From positions 1 through 64,000 of the forward strand of contig JAKFBU010000028.1 in NCBI GenBank assembly GCA_036676985.1: a stretch of DNA of 64,000 nucleotides. The letters are read 5' to 3'. This document shows positions 15,108-27,801 of the stretch, piece by piece (position 1 is the first letter of the stretch; each line of letters opens with the position of its first letter). This DNA comes from Candidatus Sericytochromatia bacterium (GTDB taxonomy: Bacteria > Cyanobacteriota > Sericytochromatia > S15B-MN24 > UBA4093). The notes under the pieces were generated by a model. It had not been told where the DNA came from. It was given only the letters and a program-made list of their open reading frames with translations, and ran no database searches. Position numbers and translations under genes: made by a program.

Positions 15108-16423
15108 GGCGCTCCGTGCTCGTCCTGACCGTGCTCGCGCTCCTCTGGGGCGTCCCGGCCCGTGCCCAGGCCGTGCTGACGCTCGATGTGGCGATCGCCC
15201 AGGCCCGTGCGTTCAGCCCCCTCTTGCGTGCCAGCCGGATCGGGCTCGACCAGGCCGATGCGGCCCGTCGAGGGGCTGAAGCCGACCGGTGGCCGGCCGT
15301 CAACCTCTCGAGCAGCCTGAGCCGGGCGGGCCAGGGCAGCGGGATCGTGACGGGCGGCAACGCCTGGAACACCAAGCTCGCGCTCACGCAGCCCGTCTTC
15401 GACGCATGGCGGGTCGACGACGCGCTGGATCAGGCCGCGATCGCCCGCGAGAAGGCGTCCTTCGAGCTGGCGAGCGCGGATCTGGATCTGCAGTACGAGG
15501 TGGCGCGGGCCTACTTCGACGTCCTCCGCACCCGCGCGCTCGAGCAGGCGGCGACCTTCGACACGACCCAGGCCCAGGCCCAGGTCGACCTGGCCAGGAC
15601 GCGCATGCGCCTGAAAGTGGGCACGCAGCTCGACGTCCTGCAGGCCCAGTCCGTGCTCGCGAGCGCGCGCGACCGCCACCTGCAGAGCCAGACGGCCGTG
15701 ACCACCGCCCTCCTGCGGCTCGAGACGGATCTCGGCGTTCCCGTGCAGTTGCCTTTGGCGGAGCCCGCACCGCTCGCCGTTGTTCCCGATGGCCCTCCTG
15801 CCAGCCCGTCGGTCGCTCTCGCCGGCCGACCGGACCTGCTGGCCCTCGAGGCGGCTCGGCGCGCGCAAGAGGTCACGGCGCGCCAGCGATCGCGAGGGAT
15901 GACGCCGAGCTTTGATGCGGGCGGCAACGTGGAGCAGACGCTCGCGGGCGCCACGAACCTCACGGTGATCGGCACGCTCACGTGGAAGCTCCTGGACTCC
16001 GGCCGACAATCGGCCCAGGTCGACCAGGCGCGCCTGGAGGCCGACCGGGCGGCGGCCATCCTGCAGGCCCGGCAGCAGGCGGCGCTACTCGACGTTGCGA
16101 GCGCCCGCGTGGCGCTGCGCAGCAGCGAGGAGCGGATCCGGCTGACGCAGGGCCAGCTCGCGACGGCCCAGGAGGCCTTGCACCTGGCGAAGCTTCGCTT
16201 CGAAGGGGGCGTCGGGACGAGCCTGGAAGTCATCCAGGCGCTCACGGCGCTCAACCAGGCGCAGACGGCCGCGATCGCCGCCCGCTTCGATCGGGCGGCG
16301 GCCGTCCTGAAGCTGGGTCAGGTCAAGGCGATTCCCGTTGCGGTGCTGCTGGATTCCGCGCGCGCCGATCGGAGCTCCGAAATAGGGGCAAGCCCCGAAA
16401 AGACTCGAGCTGCCGACAGGTAA
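15104..16423 (+). CDS. TolC family outer-membrane efflux protein
   Basis: Signal peptide; two OEP repeats (LTQPVFD, VARAYFDVL, RFEGGVGTSLEV). Confidence 0.88.
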   Translation: MRRSVLVLTVLALLWGVPARAQAVLTLDVAIAQARAFSPLLRASRIGLDQADAARRGAEADRWPAVNLSSSLSRAGQGSGIVTGGNAWNTKLALTQPVFDAWRVDDALDQAAIAREKASFELASADLDLQYEVARAYFDVLRTRALEQAATFDTTQAQAQVDLARTRMRLKVGTQLDVLQAQSVLASARDRHLQSQTAVTTALLRLETDLGVPVQLPLAEPAPLAVVPDGPPASPSVALAGRPDLLALEAARRAQEVTARQRSRGMTPSFDAGGNVEQTLAGATNLTVIGTLTWKLLDSGRQSAQVDQARLEADRAAAILQARQQAALLDVASARVALRSSEERIRLTQGQLATAQEALHLAKLRFEGGVGTSLEVIQALTALNQAQTAAIAARFDRAAAVLKLGQVKAIPVAVLLDSARADRSSEIGASPEKTRAADR

Positions 16424-16703
16424 ATGGTGCCGTTCGGCGCGATCGCCAGCGGCGTCGGCAATCCTAACCCGCCGCTCAGGGCGTTGCCGTCCCCCGGTTT
16501 CGCGAGGTTCCAGCAGCCTTTCGTCCAAGGAGCAACCGTCACTGTCTGCTCGCTTTTTCGACGCCGGCGGGTTCAGTCCCGATTTCCCGCCTTGGAACGA
16601 CAAACATTAGAATCTGCCCATGACACCGTCCTCACGCAAGGCGGTGCCTCGGGTGTCCGATGAGTAGCTTGAAGGTTAACGTGACAACAAGCGGAGTTTA
16701 TAT

Positions 16704-17117
16704 ATGCTTAAGCAACTGCTCGTATTGGGCCTGACGCTCACGATGGTGGGCTGTGGCGTGGATAACCGGTTGGCGGCGTCGACCGCAACGGTGACTAGCA
16801 AGGCGATCGCTCAGCAGCGGACTACCGAGCCCATCGGGCCCACGGATATCCAGGGTGAGCTCGTCAAGTTCGAGAAGGGCACGAGCGAGCACCGTTTCAC
16901 GGTTCGCCTCGAGGACAGCTCAACGACGATCCAGGTCCTCGTTCCAGCGACTATCACGATGCGGGTCGTCCGTGGCCAGTTCGTCGGCACGGGCAACGGC
17001 TTGCCCCTCTCATTCCTATACGACGGCGCCTACGTCCGCCTCAACCTCGCCTCACCGAAGGGCAATCCGCTGCGGGCTCGTGATGTCTACTGGGACATGA
17101 CCGGTATTCCCATTTAA
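16704..17117 (+). CDS. Hypothetical lipoprotein, small beta/OB-like fold
   Basis: MVGC lipobox; GGAG RBS. Confidence 0.7.
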   Translation: MLKQLLVLGLTLTMVGCGVDNRLAASTATVTSKAIAQQRTTEPIGPTDIQGELVKFEKGTSEHRFTVRLEDSSTTIQVLVPATITMRVVRGQFVGTGNGLPLSFLYDGAYVRLNLASPKGNPLRARDVYWDMTGIPI

Positions 17118-17224
17118 TCCAGCAGCTTCATACTGACGTGGTCCCATGATTTATGGTCTGAGGAGAAATTGAAGGTCCCGTAACTTGCTAAATTAGTTCA
17201 AGACTCTACGTGCGCGCTACTCGT

Positions 17225-17258
17225 CCCCCGCCTGCATTTGAGGCGGGGGCTGTTTTTT
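17225..17258 (+). terminator. Intrinsic terminator
   Basis: CCCCCGCCT-7-AGGCGGGGG followed by T run. Confidence 0.6.
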
Positions 17259-17329
17259 CTCCGAAACAGTGGGGGGCCTCGGAGTGGCTCGAGCTTGTGC
17301 TGACCCGAGGTTCAGGGGGATGTCAATAT

Positions 17330-18676
17330 TGCATGCTTCACGGCCAGGGCCGTGTAAGTCGCGCCATCGGCTTTACGGGTACTGCCGAGGTGAGGGCTGC
17401 CCTGGGCTTGGCCTGGGGCGACCCGGGCATCCCGAATAGCTGCTTCAGCGACTTCCAGGCCAGGCTCCTGAAGTACGACCCTGAGTGCGAGGCGTTCAAC
17501 CAGATGCTGTTGAGCCAGGGTCTTATCAAGAAGCGTGAGGCGCTGATCGTGGACGCCAGCCACATGGAGGCCAACGCCGCGGCGCACAACCCGAGGGTGC
17601 TGATCCGAAAGGCTACCCAGGCCATCCTCCGTCAGGTCCGCAAGGAGCGGCGCCATCTCTACGACGACTTGGCCAAGGCCATCGATCTCACCCCCGAGAC
17701 CAAGTTCTCGAGTGGACCCGAGTATTTCCTGTTGCCCGAGGCAGAGCGGAACGAACGCTTCAGCAAGGCCGTGACCGAGGCGCGCACGGTGATCGAGAAA
17801 CTGGAGCGTAAGAAGGTGAGTCCGGCCATCCGGAGTCAGGTCGAGCTCTTGAAGGTCATCCTGGATGAACGCTCGACCGACGAGGACGAGCCTATCGATC
17901 CGGACGACGCCCCACCCGACCGGGTCACCAGCCACCGGGATCCGGACGCGCGTTGGGGAGCCAAGGGAAAGGACAAGTACTTCCACGGATACAAGCGCAC
18001 GATCCTGACCACCAAGGACCACGGTTTCATCGCTAACGTGGACGTGGTAGCGGGCAACGCCACCGACAGCACACCGTTTGAAGCGATGCTCGAGGACAGC
18101 CAGGAGGTGTTCGGGCTCGAACCCGAGAAGGTCATTGGCGACGCGGCCTACGGGAGCCTGGCCAACCACCGCAAGCTCAAGGTCATGGGCATCCAGATGG
18201 TGGCCTCCCTCAAGCCCGCCCCCAATCCCAAGGGGCGCTTCTCGCGGAATCGCTTCAGCTACGATGCCGACAAGAAGTCGCTCTCGTGCCCCGGCGGCCA
18301 GACCACGCGAGAAGCCTATCCCAGCGCTGACGGCGAGGGGTTGACCTACCGATTCGCGGCCCACCAGTGTGGCCCCTGCAAGCACCGGGACGAGTGTACG
18401 CGGGGCGACTTCCGGAGCGTGAAGGTTGGCGAGACAGTGAAGGACATGGACGCCGCCATCGCCTACGGCAAGACCGACGACTACAAGGCGGACATGAAGG
18501 CCCGACCGGTGATCGAGGGAAAGCATTCCGAACTCGTGCGCTATCACGGCGGCCGGCGAACGCCCTACTGGACACTGTAACGAGTCTTTGCCGGAGAAGT
18601 CTGGCGCTGCCTGGTGGTGAACATCAAGCGGTGGGCGAAAGTAACGGCAAATAGCCCAATTCCGGCCGCCATATAG
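17330..18676 (+). pseudogene. IS1182-family transposase, 5'-degenerate with premature stop
   Basis: IVDASHMEANA, DPDARWG.K, GYK, GDAAYG, CPGG/C..C..R..C, R..IEGK; TAA at 18578-18580 followed in frame by RVFAGEVWRCLVVNIKRW...stop at 18676. Confidence 0.85.
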
Positions 18677-18910
18677 AGCGAAAGGGACGCTATCGCGCCC
18701 CTTTCCAGCGATCTATTCGGTTATCGATGCGACGGATCGCTTTGCGTCGCTCGGCCGCCTTTCGAGCGGTCAGCCGTTTTCGGCTATTACCAAAGCGGGA
18801 GGGGCGCCACGGCGCCCCTCCCCAACAATCTATTCGGTTATCGATGCGGTGGATCGCTCATCGCCGCTTGGCCGCCTACCAAGCTATCGGCCGTTTTCGG
18901 CTACTACCTT
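18677..18910 (+). repeat. Two tandem 117-bp imperfect repeats, each with four hairpins
   Basis: Copies 18677-18793 and 18794-18910 share ATCTATTCGGTTATCGATGCG and GCCGTTTTCGGCTA; stem differences are compensatory. Confidence 0.85.
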
Positions 18911-19019
18911 TACGGGCACCCGAGAGCACATAAGCCCTAAACTTCGCTACTTGGCAGGGGCTAAATCGCAAGAGTAATACGCGATCAAATCATTCTTCTC
19001 CGAACTTAGAAATCGAAAT

Positions 19020-20087
19020 TCATATTTTTGAATTCATGTTGGAGTTGATTTCTTTTAGTGCGGCAATAGTATCAATTCCAAGCCGCTTTAGTGACTCAAA
19101 TTCATCCTGCGATAAATAGGAGTCGATCTCATGTAGCTCTCGGTTAATTAATGGTGATAGCTGGCCAATCGCATCTTTTACGGAATTTGGTATTATGCCT
19201 GCATTGTTCAAGTGTCGAGAAAGTTGCCCGAGAGAAACGACCCGTGTGTTGGAAAACAATGCCGAGGCAGTTGCAAGCGAGCGCAACTCTGACTCAAGGC
19301 GAATCCGGATCAAGAGCAAAGCACTCTTGATGTCAAAATTATATATTTGAAATTCTTTTTGGATAAGTATTGATGGTCCGTATTTACTTTCAAGTTCAAC
19401 AGCTGATTCAAGTGCTGCTTTGTATGAGAAAGGCTCCCTAAAAAGGCGAATCTGACGAAATAATGTGCTTGATGAAGTAAATATCGATGCAGCTGCAATT
19501 GCTATTGAGGATATTGTAAAAAAGTCGAATACGTTTTTGTTTTGTTGCATGGGTCTTGAAAGCATTATGCTTTTTATGCCTGATAGTCTGCCGTTAATTG
19601 AAACTGGATCGTCGGATGGATTGTTTACGATAAAGCTCTTAAAAGAAAACCAATCTCCGGGATTTAAGAGTAGGGGTTGTAGCTCAAGTCGGTTTCCGTG
19701 CGAAAGATATAGTTTTGGGGAGAGATCTTTTGGACTCTTCTCGTTGACCACAGGTGGTTCCGGAAGCTGTCCAGAAAAATTGAAGACCAATGGGGCATCG
19801 AAGTCGGAACGATGGATTGGTTGGTTGCCATCATTTTTTACAACAAGCTGTAATGCAGTTAGCGACGATATCGTAGCGTCACCATACGTGATTCGAAGTC
19901 TTGAGATGTCGGTATTTCCAGCGATAATTGGAACCTCAGAGGCGAGAGAAATACTAAGTGAGCGCTTGTCTTGGCCGAGATAGAAAAAATAAAGTGAAAT
20001 GAATACTGACGGCACGATTGCTAGGACAATAGGCCACCAATTTTTTTTAAGAAATTCGATAAATTTTTCCACTTTTAGACCTACCAT
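19020..20087 (-). CDS. Membrane protein with C-terminal HEPN-like helical domain
   Basis: TM near residues 17-37 and 190-210; LLIRIRLESELRSL...L..L...GII...AI..L..LINRELH pattern. Confidence 0.6.
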   Translation of the reverse strand: MVGLKVEKFIEFLKKNWWPIVLAIVPSVFISLYFFYLGQDKRSLSISLASEVPIIAGNTDISRLRITYGDATISSLTALQLVVKNDGNQPIHRSDFDAPLVFNFSGQLPEPPVVNEKSPKDLSPKLYLSHGNRLELQPLLLNPGDWFSFKSFIVNNPSDDPVSINGRLSGIKSIMLSRPMQQNKNVFDFFTISSIAIAAASIFTSSSTLFRQIRLFREPFSYKAALESAVELESKYGPSILIQKEFQIYNFDIKSALLLIRIRLESELRSLATASALFSNTRVVSLGQLSRHLNNAGIIPNSVKDAIGQLSPLINRELHEIDSYLSQDEFESLKRLGIDTIAALKEINSNMNSKI

Positions 20088-20129
20088 GAATTCATGCCTG
20101 GGGTTTAGCCAGGGAGTGTTATATCCGAG

Positions 20130-20810
20130 CTAAATATAAAGAAACTTCAATTGTTCTGGCCAAAGTCTAGGTGAGCCGGCGGTCAATCGATATTCGAGAA
20201 ATTTGAGCATTGCTTTGGATGATTGAGAAAGGTGCTTAATCTTATAGGTGAGCCCAAAACTAGGGTTCTCAACGATTTCTGAGTAGGTCATATTTGTAGC
20301 TCGACCACTAGGATCATCGGGAATAAATATAGTGTCCCAATAAAAGTCTCTATTTCCTCGGAGGCCTTCAGCTATCCTCCCCTGGGTTACACCCTCGAAT
20401 ACGGATACACTTTGACCGTCACAATAAGCGACGACGGCCTTCGCACAGGCCCGACGGTTTATGGATGAAGTTTCGCGTACAAAGTTTTCCTTAAGGGTGT
20501 TCCACATTGGCTTTGTGAGCCCGCCAGGAAATCCTTGTTCCAAATATTCCTCAAAAATTAACCCTGCATGCTCAACAATACAAGGGACTCTTATTTTCTT
20601 ATACGCATCTATTACTTCTGCTATTACTAACTTCTCTAACTCAACTTCTAACGTCTCTTTTATAGATACTTCTCTGATGTCGAATTCAAATACTTCCGAA
20701 ACGGTTTTACCGTTGTTTAGTGTGCAATTTTTTTGGAATTCAAGATTTTCTTGTTTCTTGAATCTACTTGAGGTGACATAGGTTATTCTGTGCTTGGGGC
20801 TATTATACAT
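20130..20810 (-). CDS. Divergent HAM1/ITPase family protein (KomB-like)
   Basis: VTSS..K..E, IVEHAGL, FPGGLTK, FEG.TQGRI, FYWDTIFIP, TYSEI, LSQSSKAM align to the HAM1 scaffold. Confidence 0.85.
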   Translation of the reverse strand: MYNSPKHRITYVTSSRFKKQENLEFQKNCTLNNGKTVSEVFEFDIREVSIKETLEVELEKLVIAEVIDAYKKIRVPCIVEHAGLIFEEYLEQGFPGGLTKPMWNTLKENFVRETSSINRRACAKAVVAYCDGQSVSVFEGVTQGRIAEGLRGNRDFYWDTIFIPDDPSGRATNMTYSEIVENPSFGLTYKIKHLSQSSKAMLKFLEYRLTAGSPRLWPEQLKFLYI

Positions 20811-21643
20811 TACGCACCTCGCAGTTCCCGGAGGATATTTGTTATATCCTCCTCCATACTGCCACCTCTAATCGGAATGACGTCGATATTTCGAGCCCTG
20901 AATAGCTCAATTTCAAAATTCGATGGATCAGGGACTACAATATAGGCCCTGCGCCCTGTTCCAGGTAATGGTGAATTCTGAAATTTTTCATTTACAAGCC
21001 GGAATAGGTATGAGACGTTCCAATCTCTGAAACTATACCCCAGAAATAAGATTACTCTACCAAGTACATCAGCACTTAATCGGTAATCCATAGGCGAGTC
21101 CAATTTCAATCTCGTTTCGTAATCAGATTCGGATAAGACCATCGTTTCAGGGTGGTTCATGTCGCCATGAAATTTAATTATTTCAGCAATATCTGTCTGA
21201 AAACCCATATCTTGTTCCATTGCGACTACGCGAAATTCACGTTCATTCAGCTGAAAACTGCGCTCAATGAAGTTATCGTAATTAGTTGTATAAAATAGGT
21301 TGCACTTATTAAGCAAGGCGAGTTCAGTGTGGATGCTAGAGCTTAATAGGGCCTGTGACGGGGGATTCATATTTGAGTGAAGCCAAATAGTTAGCGGCGT
21401 AAATCCTCGGCTAATTATCCTAAAATATTCGAGTATTTGTAAATCAGTACCGCGAGCTCTAAGCAGTTCCGGCTCAGAAAAACCCATAATCCTTGCAGCT
21501 TCGTCTACGAGTTCGGTCCAATTAGGCCCCGTCTTAGTCATGCCATCCAATTCCCAAGAGACGGACGCAGAGATACCGGCTCCCACAAATACAATTAAGC
21601 GGCCTTCATGGTATCGAGACTTCAGATCGACAGGACATCTCAT
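20810..21643 (-). CDS. SIR2-like (SIR2_2) NADase-type protein (KomC-like)
   Basis: FVGAGIS, PNW..L, TTNYD, KFHGD, VLSESDY, LFLGYSFRD. Confidence 0.9.
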   Translation of the reverse strand: MRCPVDLKSRYHEGRLIVFVGAGISASVSWELDGMTKTGPNWTELVDEAARIMGFSEPELLRARGTDLQILEYFRIISRGFTPLTIWLHSNMNPPSQALLSSSIHTELALLNKCNLFYTTNYDNFIERSFQLNEREFRVVAMEQDMGFQTDIAEIIKFHGDMNHPETMVLSESDYETRLKLDSPMDYRLSADVLGRVILFLGYSFRDWNVSYLFRLVNEKFQNSPLPGTGRRAYIVVPDPSNFEIELFRARNIDVIPIRGGSMEEDITNILRELRGA

Positions 21644-21645
21644 AT

Positions 21646-22251
21646 CTAAGGCTTTCGTGCAATTATCCGCGTCATGGAATGCAAATGTTGTATCCGATTA
21701 TGCGGGTGCGTTTCAATAAGGTCTGAGTCCGAGCTTTCGAGAAGATGCCAGTCACTGAATAATTCTACGTATGCGCTATGGGGAATGAGACATGGATCAA
21801 AGTCTGGATGTGCTGTTTCGAGCTCCTGGTGTCGATCGTTGAAGGCACAAAGGACGACATAGCCACCCTGTCGCGTCGCATTTTTTATCTTTTTGGTGAC
21901 GCTTTTGATCTCGAATGCTGTGGACATGCAGTGAAGAAGTCCATATGCAATAACCACATCATACATTCTCTTAATATAAGCATCCCTTATGTCTAACACT
22001 TCCCAGTCTATAGGTATATCTTTCCAATTCAATTTTGCGTTAGATATTGCAAAATGAGAAACGTCTAATGCTCTTACTGCGGCGCCTTTTTGATGACAAT
22101 AGACTGCATTTTTCCCTTCACCGCAGCCGATATCTAGTATATGTGTGTTTTCTAGTGGCGTATAGTGTTCAAGTTTCTTGAGGAGGCTTCCTGGATCAGT
22201 GCCCCAAAAACATGGACAGACTTCATAGCCTTTGTCATAGCCTCCAGACAT
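21646..22251 (-). CDS. Class I SAM-dependent methyltransferase (TehB-like)
   Basis: ILDIGCGEGKNA, ALDVS, YDVVIAYGLLH, GGYVV; ATG 22251 lies 1 bp after upstream stop. Confidence 0.9.
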   Translation of the reverse strand: MSGGYDKGYEVCPCFWGTDPGSLLKKLEHYTPLENTHILDIGCGEGKNAVYCHQKGAAVRALDVSHFAISNAKLNWKDIPIDWEVLDIRDAYIKRMYDVVIAYGLLHCMSTAFEIKSVTKKIKNATRQGGYVVLCAFNDRHQELETAHPDFDPCLIPHSAYVELFSDWHLLESSDSDLIETHPHNRIQHLHSMTRIIARKP

Positions 22252-22252
22252 C

Positions 22253-23785
22253 TTACTTCCTTTCAATGCCTATTTCTTTCATTAGTTGGTTTATTGCTTT
22301 GTGGTACATAGATTTTCCGATCCAGTTGTATAAAACGGCGTCGGAATCCGAGATCATATCTTGAACATCTTGTTCAACGGGGGAGTTGCGTAGCATTAGG
22401 TAGTTTTCTATATGTATAGCCTGGTCTTCCCTTTCGCTATAAAGGTTATATGCCAAGTCTGGCGGGGCGTATACATAGAGAAGGCCGATCTTTAAGGGGC
22501 CTGCAATTCTACGTAATGAATCTAGGGTCGATTTTTGGCGAATTCCGTCGATAAGTACGCGCTCCGAACCAGAGGAGATGGCTTCTTCATAGAGTGCTTC
22601 GGCGAGTATTTCAGGCCCCTCGTCCGCTGAAATAAAATTCCAGGCAATTTCCTGAAATCTTCCTCGGGGTGTTTCTGGAACCGGTGCAATGTTAAGGATC
22701 CTTGCAAGCGTTCGCCCGCTGTTTACTTCAGTATATCCATATTTCGTACTAAGAATTCTTGTTGCTTCTGATTTGCCGCTGCCGATGCCTCCAATTACGC
22801 ATAAGATATGAGGGGGCTTTAATTTGGAGCGTTTTTGTATGCGATAGAAGGGCTGTGATGAGGTGGCCTTCGCGAAGAAAGTCCGGAGGCAGAGTTGCGA
22901 CCAGTATTCAAAATTCCAGAATAAATATGGGTCTGATGATGGATCTAACCACCGCAAGTGGGTAATCGACGTTTCACCGCGCCGCGGATTATCCCACTCT
23001 ATGTCGTCGCTTACATCATATTTGAAGACGAATCCGATGTGTTTCCTACCAGTAGACGAAGAGTCATCATTAATAATGCCAACCATTTTTAGGCGGTTTG
23101 GATCATTGAGTAAGTAAATGTCCTTTTGTGGTAATTTAAGTTCTTCGATAAGCTCGCGAATTGCGTTATGCTTAATCCCAAAATCTGCGTACGAAAAAAT
23201 GTTTCTGTCACGCTCTGTTACGTGGCCGCCAAAGCCAATACAATGGCTTCCTCTAAGATATTGTTCGACCCGATTGAAATTCCCGCGTTTATAGGCCAGC
23301 ACGCGGTCGCCTTTAGTTACCATTATGTAAGTTATAACCTGTTTATAGCTTTCATCTTGTTCCGCAGTAAGACGGTCAATATATTTAAATGGTTGGGCGG
23401 TCATGAGCGTTGAGTAAAGGCTTTCCCATTCTCTCATAACGCCTTGAGAACGGCTGTTGGCTAATAGCCATTCTGATGGAATAGCTAGCACGATCTCCGG
23501 TATCCGCTTCGGCTTTAATCGTGGTGCTTCATATATTGTTGTAGAGTCTGAAGCTAAGCGCCGAAGGAAGAATATGCCAGGCTCTGTTCTGACAAAGGCT
23601 GACGCCAATCCCTTTCGAATTATGTCAGTGCAAAGTTTGGAGCTTAATGTTTGATGGGGCGCCTTACCTGTGATTTTGTCTGAAAAGAGGTTGTTTCGGA
23701 ACGCAAGTTCGATCATTTCCTTACAACTCATTGGCCGCTTGTGCTGTTCGAGAAGGCGCTCTGCTACGTCAAGAAATTCGCTCAT
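22253..23785 (-). CDS. HARE-HTH + NUDIX-like (YmaB/COG4112-type) + P-loop nucleotide-kinase fusion
   Basis: FLDVAERLL...GKAPHQTLSS...F.RTEPGIFFL; AEQDESYKQVITY, GFGGHV, RELIEEL, INDD, WSQ; GGIGSGKS, TPR..FQ, IDGIR. Confidence 0.85.
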   Translation of the reverse strand: MSEFLDVAERLLEQHKRPMSCKEMIELAFRNNLFSDKITGKAPHQTLSSKLCTDIIRKGLASAFVRTEPGIFFLRRLASDSTTIYEAPRLKPKRIPEIVLAIPSEWLLANSRSQGVMREWESLYSTLMTAQPFKYIDRLTAEQDESYKQVITYIMVTKGDRVLAYKRGNFNRVEQYLRGSHCIGFGGHVTERDRNIFSYADFGIKHNAIRELIEELKLPQKDIYLLNDPNRLKMVGIINDDSSSTGRKHIGFVFKYDVSDDIEWDNPRRGETSITHLRWLDPSSDPYLFWNFEYWSQLCLRTFFAKATSSQPFYRIQKRSKLKPPHILCVIGGIGSGKSEATRILSTKYGYTEVNSGRTLARILNIAPVPETPRGRFQEIAWNFISADEGPEILAEALYEEAISSGSERVLIDGIRQKSTLDSLRRIAGPLKIGLLYVYAPPDLAYNLYSEREDQAIHIENYLMLRNSPVEQDVQDMISDSDAVLYNWIGKSMYHKAINQLMKEIGIERK

Positions 23786-23821
23786 GAGTAAAGCCTTTGA
23801 ATAGGATGATCTATGATGTCA

Positions 23822-23888
23822 TTAATTTCATACCCGGCTCTAACACTAAGTTTTCCTCTTAATGTCAAGTTTTAGTTAATGAAATTAA
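23822..23888 (-). promoter_or_regulatory. Putative island promoter/operator
   Basis: Perfect TTGACA on minus strand (23863-23868) between a 10-bp inverted repeat TTAATTTCAT / ATGAAATTAA; no clean -10 at 17 bp. Confidence 0.35.
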
Positions 23889-24010
23889 ATTACATCGGAG
23901 TTATTTTGAGCGCATGAACTCCCCGGGCGCGGACAGTACAGATAATGAGGTCAAGTTCGCAGGCTGTTTGGGCAAATGCTGTCCTGCCTTGAGACTCGGA
24001 CTGCCTTATT

Positions 24011-26551
24011 CTAGAAGAGCCAGGGCTGGGTAAATTTGAAGGTGACACCCAGGAGATGCCGGTTGGCCCAGTCCGGATAGACGGTGTTCCGGTACAGGTT
24101 GAGCTTGTACGTCAGGGCAGTCGTCTCAGTCAGCGGCACCGACAGGATCGACTCGTTGTCGATCAAGAGGCCGTCCTTGGCGAAGTCCGGGGTGGCGAAG
24201 AGCTTGAGGTCGGTCGACAGGTTCAGCCAGAACAGCGTCTGCTTCCACACCGCCTGGAACGTGCCACCGGTCTTGTCCGGCTGCTTCGTGTCGAAGAAAT
24301 GGTGACGGTACTCAATACCTTCCCGGAGCTCCAGGCCGAAGGGAAAGGGGTGGCTCACGCCCGAACCGAGCTGGCCCAGGAAGTAGCGCGGGTCCTGGTC
24401 GTTGTTGAAGCGCGTCGTCAGCGTCAGGGTCGCGTAGGGCTTGGCCACCGACCACAGGATGTCGCTCTTGTAATCCGTGACGAGCTGGATCTTGTCGCTC
24501 GAGATCTGGCTCTTGCCGTCCGAGAGCTGGTCGCTGTGATACGAGAGGTTCAGCGTGTTGTCCAGCTCGTGCGGGCCCCAGTTGGTGCCAAGGTCGTACT
24601 TCAGGTCACCGCCCCAGCTCATGCCGCTCTTGTCGGCCTTCCAGGCCAGGTCCGGGTAGCGCTTGGCGTCGGCCTCCACCTGCCGGCGCTGTAGGTCGGT
24701 GGTGAACTGCACGGACGACTTCCAGAAGGGGATCTGGTAGTAGTCCGGGAAGCCCGTGGGCGTGACCTCGAGGCCCTTCTTCGCCTGGTTGCGGAAGTAG
24801 CGCATGACCGCGCGGCGCACCGAGATGGTCAGGACGCGGTTGGGGCCGCTCGCCAGCACCTCCAGGCCCGTGTGCTTGCCGACGGCCGCCGGATGGGTCG
24901 TCGCGACCGTGTAGTTGGCCTTCTTCTCCAGGACGCGGCCATTCACCCAGACGACCGAGTCCTTCTCCGTCACTCCAGCGAAGAAGGCCTGTCGCCCGCG
25001 GGCCGCGTAGAAGAGGTCCGAGAGCTGGGAGCCCGTGAGCTCGACGACGGCCACCGCGTCCTCCCAGGGCATGGAGTAGAAGAGGCTGCGCGGCGAGTTC
25101 ACCGGGCCGAAGACCCGCTCGTTGTGGAAGAACGAGCGCGGTACCAGGCCCACCTCGGCGCGGGCCTGCAGGCGGACGATCTCGGGCACGAGCCCCATCA
25201 CCTGGTCCGAGGTCAGGTTGTCGGCGAGCTTCGCCAGGTTGCCCTGCTCGTCGGTCCAGGCCTTGGCAGCCAGGCGCTTGGTCTCCAGGCTCAGCTTCAT
25301 GACGGGCGAGCTCGTGGCCTCGGCGATCTTGTTGGGCAGGGTCTCCTCGTCCAGGCGGATGAGGCCCGGCTCGATGCGCGCCAGCTGATAGTCGCCTTGC
25401 GGCGAGGGCTCGAAGGTGAGGCGGGCCTTGCCGATGGCCGTGCCGAAGCCGCCCGCGTGCAGCGCGCGCTTGCCGTCCACGCCCACCACCTCATGGATGG
25501 CGATCGCCGTCGCGTTCGCCGTGTTGAACCCCCCGAGCACCAGGTCCACGCCCGAGTCGCGGGTGAGGAGCGCCATCTCGCGGTCCAGGGTGAGGTGGGT
25601 CATGGCCACGATGATGTCCGGAGTGGCCGCCCGGCGGATCAGGGGCACCCAGCGCGCGACCGCCTCCATGGGCGGATCGATGGTGACGCGCGAGATTTCC
25701 GAGAAATCGATGTACGGCCGGGCATCCGGGTCCACCAGCCCGAGCACCGCCACCTTGAGGCCGCCCCGCTCGAAGAGGGCGTAGGGGCGCGCGAGCGTCT
25801 GGTCGGTCTTGGCCCAGCGGACGTTGGTGAGGACCGCCGAGGCCGAGGACTCGCGGATGCGCTCGCGCAGGACGTCGAGGCCGTAGTTGAAGTCGTGGTT
25901 GCTCGGCAGCCAGGCGTCGTAGCCCATGTGGTTCATGGCCTCGACCATGGCCTTGCCCTTGGAGGCCGCCGAGACCATGTTGGGGCCGAGCACGTTGCCC
26001 GAGCTGAGCAATAGCGTGGGCAGGCCGTTCTTTCGCTCCTTCTCGATCAGGGCCGCCGCGCGCGGCAGGCCGCCGACGATCTTGGGCCGGGACGAGTAGG
26101 GGTCGAGCTTGACCGGGTCGAAGAGCCCGTAGGAGTCGTTGGTGTGCAGCACCATGAGGGTCTTGGGCCGGGGCACGACGACCTTGGGGGGCGCCAGGAG
26201 GTCGTCGAGCGGGTTCGAGGCCGCTGCCGACGCCGTAGCCGGCACGGAGCCCGAGGCGTCGGGCGAGAGGCTGGTCGTTGCCAGCGACGGGCGGATGCCA
26301 CCCAGGGACACCTCGAGCAGAGGCTCGGGCGTGGGCACGGCGGCAACGCTGGGGCTCGCCTCGACGACGGTGGCCATGAGGCTGGGGCTCGCGACGGCCG
26401 CCGGAGCCTGGACGCTCGCCGTCGCCTCGCTGGCGGGGCTGGGGGCGGGCGTGGCCGCGGGGAGCGTCTGCGCGCGGGCCGAGCCCACGGCGAGCGCGAA
26501 CAGGAAGAGGAGCGCGACGAGGCGCAGGGCGGGAGAGGCTAGGACAGGCAT
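24011..26551 (-). CDS. 5'-nucleotidase-like (degenerate metallophosphoesterase) fused to C-terminal outer-membrane beta-barrel
   Basis: Signal peptide, Pro/Ala linker, LHTND, GGLPR, NHDFNYG, VVELTGSQL; amphipathic strands ending in WLF. Confidence 0.75.
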   Translation of the reverse strand: MPVLASPALRLVALLFLFALAVGSARAQTLPAATPAPSPASEATASVQAPAAVASPSLMATVVEASPSVAAVPTPEPLLEVSLGGIRPSLATTSLSPDASGSVPATASAAASNPLDDLLAPPKVVVPRPKTLMVLHTNDSYGLFDPVKLDPYSSRPKIVGGLPRAAALIEKERKNGLPTLLLSSGNVLGPNMVSAASKGKAMVEAMNHMGYDAWLPSNHDFNYGLDVLRERIRESSASAVLTNVRWAKTDQTLARPYALFERGGLKVAVLGLVDPDARPYIDFSEISRVTIDPPMEAVARWVPLIRRAATPDIIVAMTHLTLDREMALLTRDSGVDLVLGGFNTANATAIAIHEVVGVDGKRALHAGGFGTAIGKARLTFEPSPQGDYQLARIEPGLIRLDEETLPNKIAEATSSPVMKLSLETKRLAAKAWTDEQGNLAKLADNLTSDQVMGLVPEIVRLQARAEVGLVPRSFFHNERVFGPVNSPRSLFYSMPWEDAVAVVELTGSQLSDLFYAARGRQAFFAGVTEKDSVVWVNGRVLEKKANYTVATTHPAAVGKHTGLEVLASGPNRVLTISVRRAVMRYFRNQAKKGLEVTPTGFPDYYQIPFWKSSVQFTTDLQRRQVEADAKRYPDLAWKADKSGMSWGGDLKYDLGTNWGPHELDNTLNLSYHSDQLSDGKSQISSDKIQLVTDYKSDILWSVAKPYATLTLTTRFNNDQDPRYFLGQLGSGVSHPFPFGLELREGIEYRHHFFDTKQPDKTGGTFQAVWKQTLFWLNLSTDLKLFATPDFAKDGLLIDNESILSVPLTETTALTYKLNLYRNTVYPDWANRHLLGVTFKFTQPWLF

Positions 26552-26829
26552 AGCTCAGTCTCGAGCCGGCTCGACTGGACCTCCAGGTGCACCATGCGCG
26601 TGCGCTCGTCGCCCGGCGCGAGGCCGGCGTGGGGGAAGCGGTCGTAGAGCGACGTGAGCTCCTGGTGGATGCGCTGGTGCTCCAGGGTCTTGCTCTTGAA
26701 GGCCTGGTAGGAGAGTACGGGCAGGCGGCCGTCGCCGTAGCGAGGGTAGGCGTCGGTGCGGTACGCGACGAACCATTGCCGGATCCGGCGGGTGGTCAGT
26801 TCGGGCAAGGACTCGAGCGATCGTGTCAT
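26539..26829 (-). CDS. Small hypothetical protein
   Basis: ATG 2 bp after upstream stop; fills the gap and overlaps the next start. Confidence 0.5.
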   Translation of the reverse strand: MTRSLESLPELTTRRIRQWFVAYRTDAYPRYGDGRLPVLSYQAFKSKTLEHQRIHQELTSLYDRFPHAGLAPGDERTRMVHLEVQSSRLETELCLS

Positions 26830-26831
26830 GG

Positions 26832-27623
26832 CTAGCGCGACGACTTCGCCCTCTTCCGCTCGGCCTTGTAGACGTGGGAGTAGAGGTCGTCGAGCGCGAT
26901 CTTCTTGTACTCCATGAGGTAGTCCACGCGCTTCAGGACGCCGCCCGGCGTGACGTCGGCGGGCACCTCCTCGGGCATGACGGCGTTCCAGTCGGGCACG
27001 AGCAGCAAGGAGCCGATCTTGTCCTCGTCCAGCGAGGCCTGGTAGATGATGAACCGGCCGTCGCTCAGGATCTGCTTGTAGCGCTTCTCCTTGAGGACCA
27101 CGCGCGCGTACCAGCGCTTGAAGCCTTCGATGAGGTTCTTGGCCGGGGGCACCCGGCGGGCCGCCTCCAGCTCGTTGTCCGCAAGGAACTTCTCGATGGC
27201 CGCGGGGTCGGTGAACGCCACCTGCTTCCACTCGCTCAGCACGAAGCGCTGGTTCTGCGGGGTCTTCATGACGATGAGCGAGTGCTTGGGCAGGTAGATG
27301 AAGCCCGAGGTATCCGACGGATCGGCCGGCACGAAGGTCTCGGAGAAGGTGGCCTCCTTGCCCCGGAGCCCCTCGAAGATCTCGAACTCGAAGCCGCGTC
27401 CGGCCCCCCGCACGGCGATGCCGCCCGTCTTCTTGAGGGCGGGGTAGCGCTTGAGGTAGTCGGTCATGTTCTGGCCGGGCACCGGATCGGGCACGACCAC
27501 CTTCTGGGCGGGCTTGGTGGCCGCGGGCTCGGACGATGCGACCGCCGGCAAGGCGATCGCCAGCGCCATCAGCAGCGCGCCAATCATGCGAGTCCAGTTG
27601 AAGGGCTTCAGGATTGCGTTCAT
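26832..27623 (-). CDS. Exported hypothetical protein
   Basis: Signal peptide (LALPAVAS-like); typical high-GC codon pattern. Confidence 0.7.
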   Translation of the reverse strand: MNAILKPFNWTRMIGALLMALAIALPAVASSEPAATKPAQKVVVPDPVPGQNMTDYLKRYPALKKTGGIAVRGAGRGFEFEIFEGLRGKEATFSETFVPADPSDTSGFIYLPKHSLIVMKTPQNQRFVLSEWKQVAFTDPAAIEKFLADNELEAARRVPPAKNLIEGFKRWYARVVLKEKRYKQILSDGRFIIYQASLDEDKIGSLLLVPDWNAVMPEEVPADVTPGGVLKRVDYLMEYKKIALDDLYSHVYKAERKRAKSSR

Positions 27624-27801
27624 CGCCCCTATTCTACCCCTCTTTCTCCCCCCTCAATCGCCTGCATACCAGATGAACAACCGCTTTAACCATTTCTTAG
27701 TCTCAGGTTAGCCGTCCGATAAGAAAGAGGGCTTGGTTATGAAACGATAAAGAGGGTGTTAAGTCATGGCAAGAAGTTTAAAGACGCTGTCAGGAGGCTC
27801 C

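What the first reader, a model, noticed from the sequence alone, without database searches (positions are those of the whole stretch)
20130..23785. Kongming-like operon with a methyltransferase and own kinase/NUDIX: candidate methylated-nucleotide signalling defence system
Seen: four AT-rich minus-strand genes with near-zero spacing (gaps of 1 bp and 2 bp, then a TAATG overlap): HARE-HTH/NUDIX/kinase, SAM methyltransferase, SIR2 (TTNYD and KFHG intact), HAM1-like. Established: in Kongming, adenosine deaminase KomA plus a phage nucleotide kinase makes dITP, which the HAM1-like KomB senses to activate the SIR2 NADase KomC. Here the HAM1+SIR2 pair is present but no deaminase. Inference: the methyltransferase writes a base-methylated nucleotide, the kinase raises its phosphorylation state, HAM1 senses it, SIR2 depletes NAD+, and NUDIX removes or processes the signal. 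I do not recognise this four-gene arrangement as a described system.
Basis: partly seen in the sequence, partly recalled or inferred. Interest (0 to 1): 0.93.

Follow-up and report, generated by a model that had tools for sequence, protein, structure and literature searches.

The report
Kongming-like defence operon without deaminase
A horizontally acquired four-gene operon joins the NAD-destroying effector pair of the Kongming anti-phage system to a different, strongly conserved set of nucleotide-handling enzymes, which points to a second, still unidentified alarm nucleotide.

Summary
Four tightly packed minus-strand genes (20130-23785) lie in a 41-45% GC island of a 61-72% GC genome. They are A (HARE-HTH + YmaB/Tm1382-type NUDIX + adenylate-kinase-like P-loop kinase), B (TehB-like SAM methyltransferase), C (SIR2) and D (HAM1). 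By sequence, the closest solved structures to C and D are KomC and KomB of Kongming. D carries the His that marks the inactive "defensive" HAM1 clade.

The set is a real unit. All 48 metagenome loci with enough downstream DNA carry all four genes, 45 of them in the same order. Fusion proteins joining A to a methyltransferase exist in nature. No KomA deaminase is present.

- 39 of 60 related loci have a Dam-like DNA adenine methyltransferase directly upstream of the HARE-HTH gene; the window copy lacks it.
- D belongs to a separate KomB clade in which residues that contact hypoxanthine in KomB are replaced.
- Five loci pair the same A+B genes with a more canonical KomBC.

The Kongming preprint already notes KomBC next to "NTPase" and "SAM-dependent methyltransferase", so this is an uncharacterised variant of a known kind. 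That the signal is a methylated nucleotide remains an inference.

The parts
18995..24011 (.). Low-GC island carrying the system, bounded on the right by the stop of a native 846-aa gene and on the left by an IS/transposase region
   Evidence: GC is 0.41-0.45 against 0.61-0.72 in the flanks. Contigs of X2 and X3 diverge from the window left of 18995. One X1 contig diverges right of 24012. X1 and X2 contigs bridge the right junction.
22253..23785 (-). Gene A, 510 aa: HARE-HTH - NUDIX-like - P-loop NMP-kinase-like protein
   Evidence: Full-length homologues at 45-53% identity. 258 cluster representatives at E <= 1e-30.
23558..23776 (-). HARE-HTH domain of A (aa 4-76)
   Evidence: Pfam PF05066, E 1.7e-7, 31.9 bits, over the cut-off of 25.9. 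The same family is precomputed for most homologues.
22886..23458 (-). NUDIX-like domain of A (about aa 110-300), YmaB/Tm1382 type. GFGGH and the RE-x2-EE helix are invariant.
   Evidence: PDB 3e57 at E 3.5e-9 and 2.8e-12 with the profile. Invariant G186 G187 H188 D193 R210 E211 E214 E215. A Bacillus homologue annotated as a NUDIX protein sits in an nrdI-nrdE-nrdF-NUDIX operon. The window protein itself does not reach Pfam NUDIX; relatives do.
22271..22828 (-). P-loop kinase domain of A (about aa 320-505). GxxGSGKS and DGIRQ are conserved.
   Evidence: PDB 3lw7/3h0k (AdkA-like / UPF0200) at E 2.3e-12 with the profile; adenylate kinase 1 at 5e-4 to 4e-3. NCBIfam adenylate kinase at E 1.9e-4, far below its cut-off. 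Invariant G332 S336 G337 K338 G414 R416.
21646..22251 (-). Gene B, 201 aa from the ATG (206 aa from TTG 22266): class I SAM methyltransferase, TehB-like
   Evidence: Pfam Methyltransf_25 and TehB, each about E 2e-11. Profile against PDB: 8gdu, TehB 4dq0/2xva and 6mro at about E 1e-17. Invariant D40 G42 G44 G46 N48 (motif I), plus a conserved C-terminal His-rich motif.
20810..21643 (-). Gene C, 277 aa: KomC-like SIR2 NADase
   Evidence: Best PDB hit is KomC 8zsf, E 3.1e-37 over aa 8-269. N121, H159 (= KomC H146) and D207 (= KomC D194) are invariant in 33 and 50 sequences. The role of D194 comes from PMC13454610, section 11.
20130..20810 (-). Gene D, 226 aa: KomB-like, catalytically dead HAM1 (predicted nucleotide sensor)
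   Evidence: Best PDB hit is KomB 8zsg, E 2.1e-23. His81 aligns with KomB His65 and is invariant in 42 of 42 sequences. It belongs to a distinct clade with 99/98 support.
19020..20087 (-). Gene E, 355 aa, same strand and island, N-terminal hydrophobic stretch. Probably not part of the system.
   Evidence: No Pfam, PADLOC or NCBIfam family. Only 4 distant homologues besides itself. Absent from all 80 related loci. Present in the related strains of X2 and X3.

Best explanation
This is a horizontally acquired member of the Kongming family of abortive-infection systems. It has the KomBC effector but a different input module.

Shown by homology and conservation:
- C is a KomC-type SIR2 NADase with all residues needed for NAD+ hydrolysis.
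- D is a KomB-type HAM1 that has lost the catalytic acid, so it should bind a non-canonical purine nucleotide rather than hydrolyse it.
- C and D are translationally coupled.
- A and B are inherited together with C and D, and in some bacteria they are fused into one protein.

Inferred pathway:
1. The YmaB-type NUDIX domain of A turns a (d)NTP into the (d)NMP.
2. The SAM methyltransferase B modifies that monophosphate.
3. The dedicated kinase domain of A re-phosphorylates the modified nucleotide, which host NMP kinases would not accept.
4. Host nucleoside-diphosphate kinase makes the triphosphate.
5. D binds that triphosphate and switches on C, which depletes NAD+ and aborts infection.

The kinase is built in, so the phage kinase that triggers Kongming cannot be the trigger here. 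The likely control point is the HARE-HTH domain of A. In most relatives this gene is paired with a Dam-like DNA adenine methyltransferase, so it probably reads the methylation state of DNA (self versus incoming). The window copy lacks its own Dam gene. It may rely on a native D12 methyltransferase elsewhere in the genome, or work without this layer.
For: KomBC identity:
- Best PDB hits are KomC (E 3.1e-37) and KomB (E 2.1e-23).
- D His81 = KomB His65 in 42 of 42 sequences.
- C N121, H159 and D207 are invariant, matching KomC H146 and D194.
- The C-D spacing is -10 to +5 nt in 50 of 50 loci.

Unit of four genes:
- 48 of 48 loci with at least 2.2 kb downstream of A hold B, C and D. 45 are colinear.
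- Pairwise-distance correlations are A-D 0.77, A-C 0.67, B-D 0.65 and C-D 0.65 (descriptive only).

A and B share one pathway:
- 6 of 6 scanned proteins of 668-753 aa carry the A architecture plus a C-terminal class I methyltransferase.
- That domain matches the B profile at 96.6% hhalign probability.

Catalytic motifs of the NUDIX, kinase and methyltransferase parts are invariant.

NUDIX type: the Bacillus homologue sits in an nrdI-nrdE-nrdF-NUDIX operon. YmaB is reported to have preliminary dNTP pyrophosphohydrolase activity (PMC5960316, Discussion passage).

A different ligand is plausible. The KomB residues that contact hypoxanthine or ribose (H11, T66, R168; PMC13454610 section 9) are kept in 4 of 4 KomBs from plasmid records (two with KomA adjacent). 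They are replaced in all 34 KomBs linked to A+B. Q141 is Y in 29 of 29 and K49 is E in 26 of 26 of the window's clade.

Defence context and horizontal transfer:
- Low-GC island.
- 0 of 400 other genomes of the same phylum carry A.
- Neighbours in other loci include HmaC, DpdB/DndB-like and type III Res genes.

Dam link:
- A D12 methyltransferase lies directly upstream on the same strand in 39 of 60 loci.
- HARE-HTH is recurrently tied to N6A methyltransferases, and the ASXL1 domain bound 6mA DNA in vitro (passages in PMC4738411 and PMC6591016).
Against: - There is no biochemical evidence for any step.
- B's nearest characterised relatives are TehB (an oxyanion methyltransferase), phosphoethanolamine N-methyltransferases and other small-molecule enzymes, not nucleotide methyltransferases. 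The methyl acceptor (base, sugar, phosphate or something else) is open.
- Five loci (L013, L020, L029, L043, L079) carry the same A+B genes with a KomB that keeps Q141, K49 and N9. They nest among Y157-type loci in the A tree. The Q141Y and K49E changes are therefore not required by A+B.
- Only 4 plasmid KomBs were available for the pocket comparison, only two of them with KomA adjacent, and the alignment at the R168 column near the C-terminus is less certain.
- The A-B distance correlation is only 0.36.
- The window copy lacks the Dam-like gene, as do 14 of 60 relatives by the main profile; 4 of those have another D12 methyltransferase nearby. Dam distances correlate weakly with the core genes (0.16-0.44). 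Genes upstream of Dam are often restriction-like, so Dam may belong to a neighbouring system.
- A self-contained pathway needs a still unknown off-switch to avoid killing the host.
- In two loci B is split by an IS element.
- One locus (L070) has A with no B or C in 1.8 kb downstream.
Confidence: 0.5

Rival explanations
1. A and B do not write the signal. They make NAD+ depletion irreversible and so defeat phage NAD+ reconstitution. The NUDIX domain destroys ADP-ribose, B methylates nicotinamide, and the kinase recycles AMP. D senses a nucleotide that the phage itself causes to appear.
For: SIR2 NADases release ADP-ribose and nicotinamide, and phages rebuild NAD+ from these products (abstracts of PMC13586617 and PMC12774641 in the listing). 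ADP-ribose pyrophosphatase is a classical NUDIX activity, and the kinase part resembles adenylate kinase. KomBC pairs without any adjacent signal-making gene exist on Pantoea plasmids.
Against: The NUDIX domain is of the YmaB/Tm1382 type, linked to deoxynucleotide synthesis. The same HARE-HTH-NUDIX module is coupled to CHAT proteases, where NAD products play no part. B is TehB-like and gave no hit to a nicotinamide N-methyltransferase family. KomB base-pocket residues change specifically in A+B-linked lineages.
Confidence: 0.12
2. The messenger is not methylated. A alone, using its NUDIX and kinase domains, shifts the phosphorylation state of a deaminated, damaged or phage-derived purine nucleotide into the triphosphate that D senses. 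B has a side role, such as keeping the pathway silent, detoxifying a by-product or modifying a protein.
For: Five loci combine A+B with a KomB that keeps the dITP-type residues Q141, K49 and N9. B's characterised relatives are not nucleotide enzymes. The A-B co-variation is the weakest within the core (0.36).
Against: B is present in every informative locus and is fused to A in several lineages. Its SAM-binding motifs are invariant. H11, T66 and R168 of KomB are also replaced in the five 'canonical-looking' KomBs.
Confidence: 0.15
3. The system senses breakdown of host DNA. The Dam-like enzyme marks the chromosome with 6mA. When a phage degrades the chromosome, N6-methyl-dAMP is released, the kinase of A raises it to the triphosphate, and D senses it. 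NUDIX and B tune or reset the pool.
For: A Dam-like methyltransferase lies directly upstream of A in 39 of 60 loci. A carries a dedicated NMP-kinase-like domain. The hypoxanthine O6 contacts of KomB are replaced by aromatic residues.
Against: This gives B no clear role, although B is the most constant partner. The window and at least 10 relatives have no D12 methyltransferase in the locus. Dam co-varies only weakly with the core. It also leaves no role for the HARE-HTH DNA-binding domain.
Confidence: 0.07
4. This is not an immune system. It is a metabolic or regulatory nucleotide-sanitising cluster, or a selfish addiction module.
For: HAM1, NUDIX and TehB families are mostly housekeeping or detoxification enzymes. 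PADLOC 2.0 recognises no system here.
Against: D lacks the catalytic acid. C is a KomC-type NADase with the immune-specific Asp. The cluster sits on a low-GC island with patchy distribution. Other loci have defence neighbours. PADLOC 2.0 dates from 2023, before Kongming.
Confidence: 0.05

Closest known systems
Kongming (KomA adenosine deaminase, KomB HAM1-like sensor, KomC SIR2 NADase)
   Same: C and D are homologues of KomC and KomB, which are their best solved-structure hits. D has the Asp-to-His change of the defensive HAM1 clade. C keeps H146 and D194. The two genes are coupled. The logic is the same: nucleotide messenger, HAM1 sensor, NAD+ depletion.
   Different: There is no KomA. The input is instead a HARE-HTH-NUDIX-kinase protein plus a SAM methyltransferase, often with a Dam-like methyltransferase. 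The gene order is SIR2 then HAM1, against KomA-KomB-KomC on the Vibrio and Zymomonas plasmids. The system has its own kinase, so it does not depend on a phage dNMP kinase. D belongs to a separate clade. The dITP-contacting residues H11, T66, Q141 and R168 are replaced, and K49 is replaced in the main clade.
KomA-less 'candidate types' of Kongming named in the Kongming preprint (section 11, fig. S19)
   Same: The preprint reports KomBC beside nucleotide-metabolism genes including 'NTPase' and 'SAM-dependent methyltransferase'. This fits A and B.
   Different: The text I could read gives only a list of associated genes. There is no domain analysis of A, no Dam or HARE-HTH link, no pocket comparison and no experiment. 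I could not see the figure, so identity with this arrangement is likely but not verified.
HARE-HTH-NUDIX + CHAT protease gene pairs on alphaproteobacterial plasmids
   Same: The N-terminal two-domain module of A (24-28% identity over aa 1-218 up to 1-305) lies directly upstream of the effector gene, among TIR and caspase-like genes.
   Different: These have no kinase, no methyltransferase and no KomBC. The effector is a CHAT protease, so the module there probably acts as a sensor that talks to a protein effector.
Restriction-modification-like self-marking (orphan or type II Dam-family methyltransferase plus a reader of 6mA)
   Same: A D12 N6-adenine DNA methyltransferase is operonic with a HARE-HTH protein in 39 of 60 relatives. 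HARE-HTH has been proposed, and for ASXL1 assayed, as a 6mA-DNA reader.
   Different: There is no nuclease, and the output would be a messenger and NAD+ depletion. The window copy has no adjacent Dam. A native D12 methyltransferase lies on another contig.
Thoeris ThsA / DSR2 and other defence SIR2 NADases
   Same: The SIR2 domain gives PADLOC hits to ThsA, LmuA, Dsr1/2 and PDC-S25.
   Different: Only the SIR2 domain matches. There is no SLOG, TIR or long sensor region, and KomC is by far the better match (E 3e-37 against 5e-13 for ThsA).

Membership tests
Kongming (KomABC) | KomC-type SIR2 NADase with catalytic Asn/His and the NADase-specific Asp (KomC H146, D194) | tested here: met
   KomC 8zsf is the best PDB hit at E 3.1e-37. 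The H146N mutant entry aligns at KFHGD. N121, H159 and D207 are invariant. The role of D194 comes from PMC13454610, section 11.
Kongming (KomABC) | KomB-type HAM1 of the defensive clade: the catalytic acid is replaced by His, and the nucleotide-binding Lys and Glu are kept | tested here: met
   KomB 8zsg is the best PDB hit at E 2.1e-23. His81 = His65. H81, K18 and E21 are invariant in 42 of 42 sequences. The canonical Asn9 is Ser in 40 of 42.
Kongming (KomABC) | The HAM1 and SIR2 genes are adjacent and co-inherited | tested here: met
   There is a 1-nt overlap in the window. The spacing is -10 to +5 nt in 50 of 50 loci. The order is reversed (SIR2 first) compared with the plasmid Kongming loci.
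Kongming (KomABC) | A KomA adenosine deaminase makes the deaminated nucleotide | tested here: not met
   The island proteins have no deaminase domain. phmmer with two KomA proteins gave 0 hits in the window and the 80 loci.
Kongming (KomABC) | A dITP-specific pocket in KomB (H11, K49, T66, F140, Q141, W142, R168) | tested here: not met
   The window has F17, E65, A82, F156, Y157, W158 and S197. Only F140 and W142 are kept. The residue roles come from PMC13454610, section 9.
Kongming (KomABC) | Triggered by a phage dNMP kinase, and protects against phage through NAD+ depletion | not testable with these tools
   This needs infection assays. The built-in kinase domain argues for another trigger (inference).
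Housekeeping HAM1/RdgB/ITPase | A catalytic acidic residue in the (D/E)-(D/E)-(S/T)-G motif | tested here: not met
   D has VEHAGL. The genome's own RdgB-like gene on contig C6 has DDSG.
NUDIX hydrolases (YmaB/Tm1382 subgroup) | A Nudix helix RE-U-x-EE preceded by a Gly-rich strand, with homology to a solved family member | tested here: met
   R210, E211, E214, E215 and G186-H188 are invariant. 3e57 scores E 2.8e-12. The spacing between the Gly strand and the helix is longer than in the textbook box, and the window protein misses Pfam PF00293. That 3e57 is a Nudix fold is recalled; the Bacillus homologue's annotation supports it.
Nucleoside-monophosphate kinases (adenylate-kinase-like) | A P-loop plus an NMP-binding Arg motif, with family-level score | tested here: inconclusive
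   The P-loop and DGIRQ are conserved. Best hits are UPF0200/AdkA-like at E 2e-12 and adenylate kinase 1 at about 1e-3. NCBIfam adenylate kinase scores 21 bits against a cut-off of 284. The substrate is unknown.
TehB-family SAM methyltransferases | A class I SAM-binding fold with the TehB-type C-terminal substrate region, scoring above family cut-offs | tested here: inconclusive
   Pfam TehB scores 44 bits, over its cut-off of 20.4. The profile aligns to TehB structures over about 159 columns at E about 1e-17. NCBIfam TehB equivalogs score 43-56 bits against cut-offs of 218-303. It is a relative, not an orthologue.
   The window has only 225 nt between the start of A and the native gene. The feature is met in 39 of 60 relatives. 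The genome holds a native-GC D12 methyltransferase elsewhere, 38-41% identical to the system-linked ones.

The most novel reading that the evidence does not exclude
This would be a five-part immune circuit. A Dam-like enzyme marks self DNA. The HARE-HTH domain of A reads the missing (or foreign) adenine methylation on incoming DNA. That switches on a private nucleotide factory: NUDIX, then a SAM methyltransferase, then a dedicated kinase. The factory makes a methyl-modified (d)NTP, a new class of second messenger, which a re-tuned KomB senses to fire the KomC NADase. Restriction-modification-style discrimination would then be wired to abortive infection through a methylated nucleotide instead of a nuclease.
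Probability: 0.2. Interest if true: 0.88.

Novelty: new variant of a known kind. Interest (0 to 1): 0.68.

Why it matters
Kongming showed that a base-modified nucleotide (dITP) can act as an immune messenger. Its authors proposed that other KomBC systems use other nucleotides.

This locus is a concrete and abundant test case. There are 258 cluster representatives of gene A at E <= 1e-30. Related loci come from many metagenome samples, including ocean-survey (TARA) contigs, and named relatives come from Nitrospiraceae, Pirellulales, Tepidisphaeraceae, Corallococcus, Nannocystis and a Bacteroidota MAG.

The input module is complete and self-contained, the sensor pocket is visibly re-tuned, and natural fusions tie the enzymes together. 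Identifying the product of A+B would give a new messenger chemistry. It would also explain how a KomB pocket is re-specified.

The link between Dam and HARE-HTH would, if real, show how epigenetic self-marking can gate a messenger-based abortive system. Apart from the SIR2 domain hits, PADLOC 2.0 flags no system here, so current tools probably miss it.

Tried and rejected
Searches that gave little:
- The genome search found A in 1 of 401 genomes of the window's phylum, and that one was the window's own genome.
- A D-like gene was found in 0 of 3 and then 0 of 401 genomes around another phylum's handle. The tool notes that an empty answer there shows little.
- Nothing turned up in the phage records with D as query or in the viral contigs with the A profile.
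- The word-index search for forms of A of 894 aa or more found none. The 668-753 aa fusions came from the exhaustive search instead.

Uninformative scans:
- The promoter and terminator scan gave fewer sites than shuffled sequence.
- No tRNA gene lies within 14000-28000.
- No direct repeats delimit the island.
- No RNA holder was listed for the stretch, so nothing can be said about expression.

Gene E as a fifth component: rejected. It is in 0 of 80 loci and has only 4 distant homologues.

Q141Y and K49E as a signature imposed by A+B: weakened by the five loci with FQWD-type KomB.

Dam as an obligatory component: rejected. It is adjacent in 39 of 60 loci, co-varies weakly with the core, and has variable restriction-like genes upstream.

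Literature searches for a named four-gene system gave search listings only, and none describes it. The library holds only CC-licensed PMC papers and bioRxiv. Supplements are closed, so fig. S19 of the Kongming preprint, which may show this arrangement, was not seen.

Independence of the loci: at least five pairs look like the same sequence sampled twice (L035/36, L045/46, L063/64, L066/68, L082/83; identical scores). The locus counts therefore overstate independence somewhat.

Full report
OBSERVATION

- A: 22253-23785, 510 aa.
- B: 21646-22251 from its ATG. A TTG five codons upstream is also open, but homologues align from the GGYD just after the ATG.
- C: 20810-21643, 277 aa.
- D: 20130-20810, 226 aa.

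The spacings are 1 bp, 2 bp and a one-base stop/start overlap. The genes lie in a block of 0.41-0.45 GC (19001-24000) inside sequence of 0.61-0.72 GC.

A fifth low-GC ORF, E (19020-20087, 355 aa), follows D after 42 nt. It has no family and only four distant homologues. It is absent from every related locus.

The island is not an assembly artefact. One contig of run X1, the probable source, covers 18640-24188 without a mismatch. A contig of run X2, from a different study and about 96% identical, bridges the start of A and the native gene at 24011. Contigs of X2 and X3 diverge from the window left of 18995, where the window has a transposase and repeats.

WHAT THE PROTEINS ARE

A has three parts:
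- A HARE-HTH domain, aa 4-76 (Pfam E 1.7e-7).
- A middle domain whose only solved relative is Tm1382 (3e57; E 3.5e-9 with the protein, 2.8e-12 with the family profile).
- A C-terminal P-loop domain. It is closest to the AdkA-like/UPF0200 proteins 3lw7 and 3h0k (E 2.3e-12) and then to adenylate kinase 1.

Across 34 and 71 homologues several motifs are invariant: the Gly-rich strand GFGGH; the Nudix helix residues R210, E211, E214 and E215; the P-loop G332/S336-G337-K338; and the DGIRQ motif.

The window protein itself misses Pfam NUDIX, but relatives reach it. The nearest Bacillus homologue (36.6% identity over aa 96-259) is annotated as a NUDIX protein and sits right after nrdI-nrdE-nrdF. That is the position of YmaB. 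A passage in the Discussion of PMC5960316 reports preliminary dNTP pyrophosphohydrolase activity for YmaB.

B is a class I SAM methyltransferase with an invariant motif I and a conserved His-rich C-terminal motif. Its best solved relatives are two uncharacterised archaeal enzymes, TehB, and phosphoethanolamine N-methyltransferases. It falls far below the NCBIfam TehB cut-offs.

C matches KomC over nearly its whole length (8zsf, E 3.1e-37; ThsA scores only 5e-13).

D matches KomB (8zsg, E 2.1e-23).

KomBC MEMBERSHIP

The preprint that defined Kongming says defensive HAM1 proteins replace the catalytic acid by His (KomB H65) while keeping the nucleotide-binding residues (passage and section 11). 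D His81 aligns with H65 and is invariant in 42 of 42 sequences of its family, as are K18 and E21.

The structural paper (PMC13454610, section 11) shows that KomC D194 is needed for NADase activity. C has the equivalent D207, together with N121 and H159. H159 aligns with the residue mutated in the KomC(H146N) entry. All three are invariant.

C and D are therefore a KomBC pair, though in the order SIR2-HAM1. Kongming loci on Vibrio and Zymomonas plasmids have adenosine deaminase, HAM1 and SIR2, with HAM1 directly upstream of SIR2.

No KomA is present. There is no deaminase domain in the island. Two plasmid KomA proteins used as queries gave no hit in the 64-kb window or in 80 related loci.

CO-CONSERVATION

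A has many full-length relatives at 45-53% identity (364 hits among the 8000 candidates scored). In the exhaustive search of 1.84 billion representatives it has 258 cluster representatives at E <= 1e-30.

A scan of metagenome contigs with the family alignment found 197 relatives; the best 80 loci were kept.

- 48 of the 80 loci have at least 2.2 kb downstream of A. All 48 contain B, C and D.
- 45 of the 48 are colinear, A-B-C-D on one strand.
- Two are cyclically permuted (L018, L076) and one is divergent (L072).
- Among the 32 shorter loci, missing genes are explained by contig ends, with two exceptions.
  - In L065 an IS3-like insertion splits B and pushes C and D off the contig.
  - In L070, 1.8 kb downstream of A holds neither B nor C.
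- L019 also has an IS inside B.

At least five pairs of loci are probably duplicates, so the independent count is a little lower.

The C-D spacing is -10 to +5 nt in 50 of 50 loci.

Pairwise-distance correlations within the set are 0.36 to 0.77. A-D is the highest and A-B the lowest (descriptive only, since relatives are not independent).

ROSETTA-STONE FUSIONS

Among the best 150 representatives are eight proteins of 668-753 aa in which the A profile covers the first 490-500 residues or so. I scanned six of the eight. All six carry a C-terminal class I methyltransferase domain.

For one of them the domain matches the B family profile with 96.6% hhalign probability over 146 columns, including the HP-x-F-x-P motif. 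It is only 23-24% identical to B.

One fusion, P0248, also passes the Pfam cut-off for the mRNA cap guanine-N7 methyltransferase domain (32.5 against 26.6 bits), but generic methyltransferase models score higher. I take that only as a hint that a nucleotide base could be the acceptor.

I could not fetch the gene neighbourhoods of these fusions.

A FIFTH GENE IN MOST RELATIVES

Clustering of the flanking ORFs revealed a D12-class N6-adenine DNA methyltransferase (Pfam PF02086, E 1.5e-43; PADLOC type II/orphan methyltransferase models).

60 loci have an intact A N-terminus and more than 900 nt upstream. Among them:
- 39 have this gene directly upstream on the same strand, with a gap of -17 to +64 nt.
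- 6 have it farther away or on the other strand.
- 1 has it on the other strand, overlapping the start of A.
- 14 lack it. Four of these have a second, divergent D12 methyltransferase nearby (L007, L053, L072, L078).

What lies upstream of the Dam-like gene varies: HmaC in 6 loci, DndB/DpdB-like proteins in 9, and a type III Res in L019. Its distances correlate only weakly with the core genes (0.16-0.44).

It is therefore a frequent but looser partner, and could in part belong to neighbouring restriction-like systems.

The window has no room for it, with 225 nt between A and the native gene. The genome does have a native-GC D12 methyltransferase on another contig, 38-41% identical to the system-linked ones.

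HARE-HTH domains are known for recurrent fusion or operon linkage with N6A methyltransferases and restriction enzymes. The ASXL1 HARE-HTH bound 6mA DNA in pull-downs (passages in PMC4738411 and PMC6591016).

The HARE-HTH-NUDIX module without a kinase also occurs directly upstream of CHAT protease genes on Leisingera and Agrobacterium plasmids, among TIR and caspase-like genes. This marks it as a reusable sensor or input module of conflict systems.

THE SENSOR POCKET

PMC13454610, section 9, names the KomB residues that recognise dITP:
- H11, F140 and Q141 contact the O6 carbonyl.
- R168 and F140 stack on or stabilise the base.
- Q141, W142 and T66 are at the deoxyribose.
- K49 and R8 are at the phosphates.

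I aligned 34 KomB-like proteins from A+B loci with four plasmid KomBs (two of which have KomA adjacent) and the genome's own RdgB.

The four plasmid KomBs keep N9, H11, K49, T66, Q141 and R168.

The window's clade (29 sequences) has:
- S at N9 (27 of 29).
- F or Y at H11 (27 of 29).
- A at T66 (29 of 29).
- Y at Q141 (29 of 29).
- S at R168 (29 of 29).
- E at K49 in the main subclade (26 of 26). The three marine sequences keep K.

This clade is well separated in a maximum-likelihood tree (99/98 support, long stem).

Five loci (L013, L020, L029, L043, L079) carry a different KomBC under the same A+B. Their KomB keeps N9, K49 and Q141 but has F at H11, G at T66 and A at R168. In a FastTree of A these five loci fall in an eight-leaf clade (support 0.94) together with two Y157-type loci. 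KomBC was therefore exchanged at least once under a constant input module.

Two conclusions follow:
- Loss of H11, T66 and R168 is common to every KomB that works with A+B, which fits a ligand other than dITP.
- Q141Y and K49E are not demanded by A+B, so they cannot be read as a 'methyl pocket'.

The comparison rests on only four plasmid KomB sequences.

ORIGIN AND SPREAD

A is found in no other genome among 400 sampled from the window's phylum. Together with the GC contrast, this indicates horizontal acquisition.

No tRNA, integrase or flanking direct repeats mark the island. A DDE transposase and a 115-117-nt tandem repeat lie at its left edge.

Named relatives of A come from Nitrospiraceae, Pirellulales, Tepidisphaeraceae, Corallococcus and Nannocystis, and a fused form comes from a Bacteroidota MAG. 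Nothing was found in phage or viral collections.

MECHANISM

Shown by homology:
- A KomBC-type effector with an inactive HAM1 sensor and a competent SIR2 NADase.
- An input module of three apparently active enzymes that is inherited, and sometimes fused, as a unit.

Inferred: modification happens at the monophosphate level, as it does for KomA, which prefers dAMP.
1. NUDIX makes the (d)NMP.
2. B methylates it.
3. The dedicated kinase restores the diphosphate, because host NMP kinases are base-specific.
4. Host Ndk finishes the triphosphate.
5. D binds it and C depletes NAD+.

Such a pathway must be kept off in uninfected cells. The HARE-HTH domain, with the Dam partner, is the obvious candidate gate.

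I give the whole chain about 0.5. The narrower statement that this is a KomBC-effector defence system with a non-KomA input I hold at about 0.85.

Rivals, all set out in their own section:
- Product scavenging against phage NAD+ reconstitution.
- An unmethylated messenger, with B in a side role.
- Salvage of N6-methyl-dAMP from degraded, Dam-marked host DNA.
- A non-immune function.

NOVELTY

PADLOC 2.0 (2023) sees only the SIR2 domain and a generic methyltransferase hit.

Four literature searches found no paper that describes this gene set. [quoted passage not shown] The structural paper repeats this idea (Discussion passage). The relevant supplementary figure could not be opened.

I therefore rate the locus as a new, uncharacterised variant of a known kind. 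Four points appear to be new relative to the text I could read:
- The three-domain anatomy of A.
- The A-methyltransferase fusions.
- The Dam/HARE-HTH link.
- The re-tuned KomB pocket together with a KomBC swap.

LIMITS

There is no structure or complex prediction, no expression data and no biochemistry.

Noticed in passing
window 17210-18580 (+) and 18677-18908: A DDE transposase ORF (DDE_Tnp_1, E 8e-16) lies at the left edge of the island. It is followed by two tandem copies of a 115-117-nt repeat (79% identical). Read depth over the transposase is 2-3 times that of its flanks in X1, as expected for a multi-copy IS.
   Followed up: partly
window 19020-20087 (-): An orphan 355-aa gene with an N-terminal hydrophobic stretch sits 42 nt downstream of D in the same low-GC island. 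It has no family and four distant homologues. It is present in the related strains of runs X2 and X3, but not in any other locus with the system.
   Followed up: partly
L088 6001-8609; L089 6001-8618: On Leisingera and Agrobacterium (pTi) plasmids, a 308-aa HARE-HTH-NUDIX protein overlaps the start of a CHAT-domain protease gene. On the Agrobacterium plasmid the pair lies among TIR, caspase and further CHAT genes. This looks like a two-gene conflict system that shares A's input module.
   Followed up: partly
L019 6724-7967; L065 7667-9109: In two metagenome loci the methyltransferase gene B is split by an insertion of 1.2-1.4 kb encoding IS3-like transposase ORFs. These may be inactivated copies.
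   Followed up: partly
L092 3845-5196 (Pantoea plasmid) and 71 further Pantoea records: KomB-KomC pairs occur on large Pantoea plasmids. In the record inspected, no adenosine deaminase or other nucleotide enzyme is annotated next to them.
   Followed up: no
L091 3857-4414; L093 about 4001-4339: The KomB homologues of Zymomonas (next to an adenosine deaminase) and Novosphingobium have Gln, not His, at the KomB H65 position (VEQTC). The preprint says defensive HAM1s invariably carry His there.
   Followed up: no
window 24012: One contig of run X1 matches the native 846-aa gene but continues with unrelated sequence exactly where the island begins. This hints that a co-occurring strain has a different or empty site. 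It is a single contig, so the hint is weak.
   Followed up: no
P0248 (668 aa), P0182 (750 aa): The methyltransferase domain of the fused A-methyltransferase proteins gives weak hits to the mRNA cap guanine-N7 methyltransferase family. P0248 is over the Pfam cut-off and P0182 just under it. The window's B gives no such hit.
   Followed up: partly
L021 10700-11134; L033, L038, L051, L071 downstream of D; L042, L049 upstream: A small protein of 145-188 aa with no Pfam or PADLOC family recurs in 7 loci. In five of them it lies directly after D.
   Followed up: no
L066 2080-2670; L084 2422-2973: A P-loop protein of about 190 aa (IAIDGAQ-x-TGKT motif) lies upstream of the Dam-like gene or of A in a few loci. 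It has no PADLOC family.
   Followed up: no
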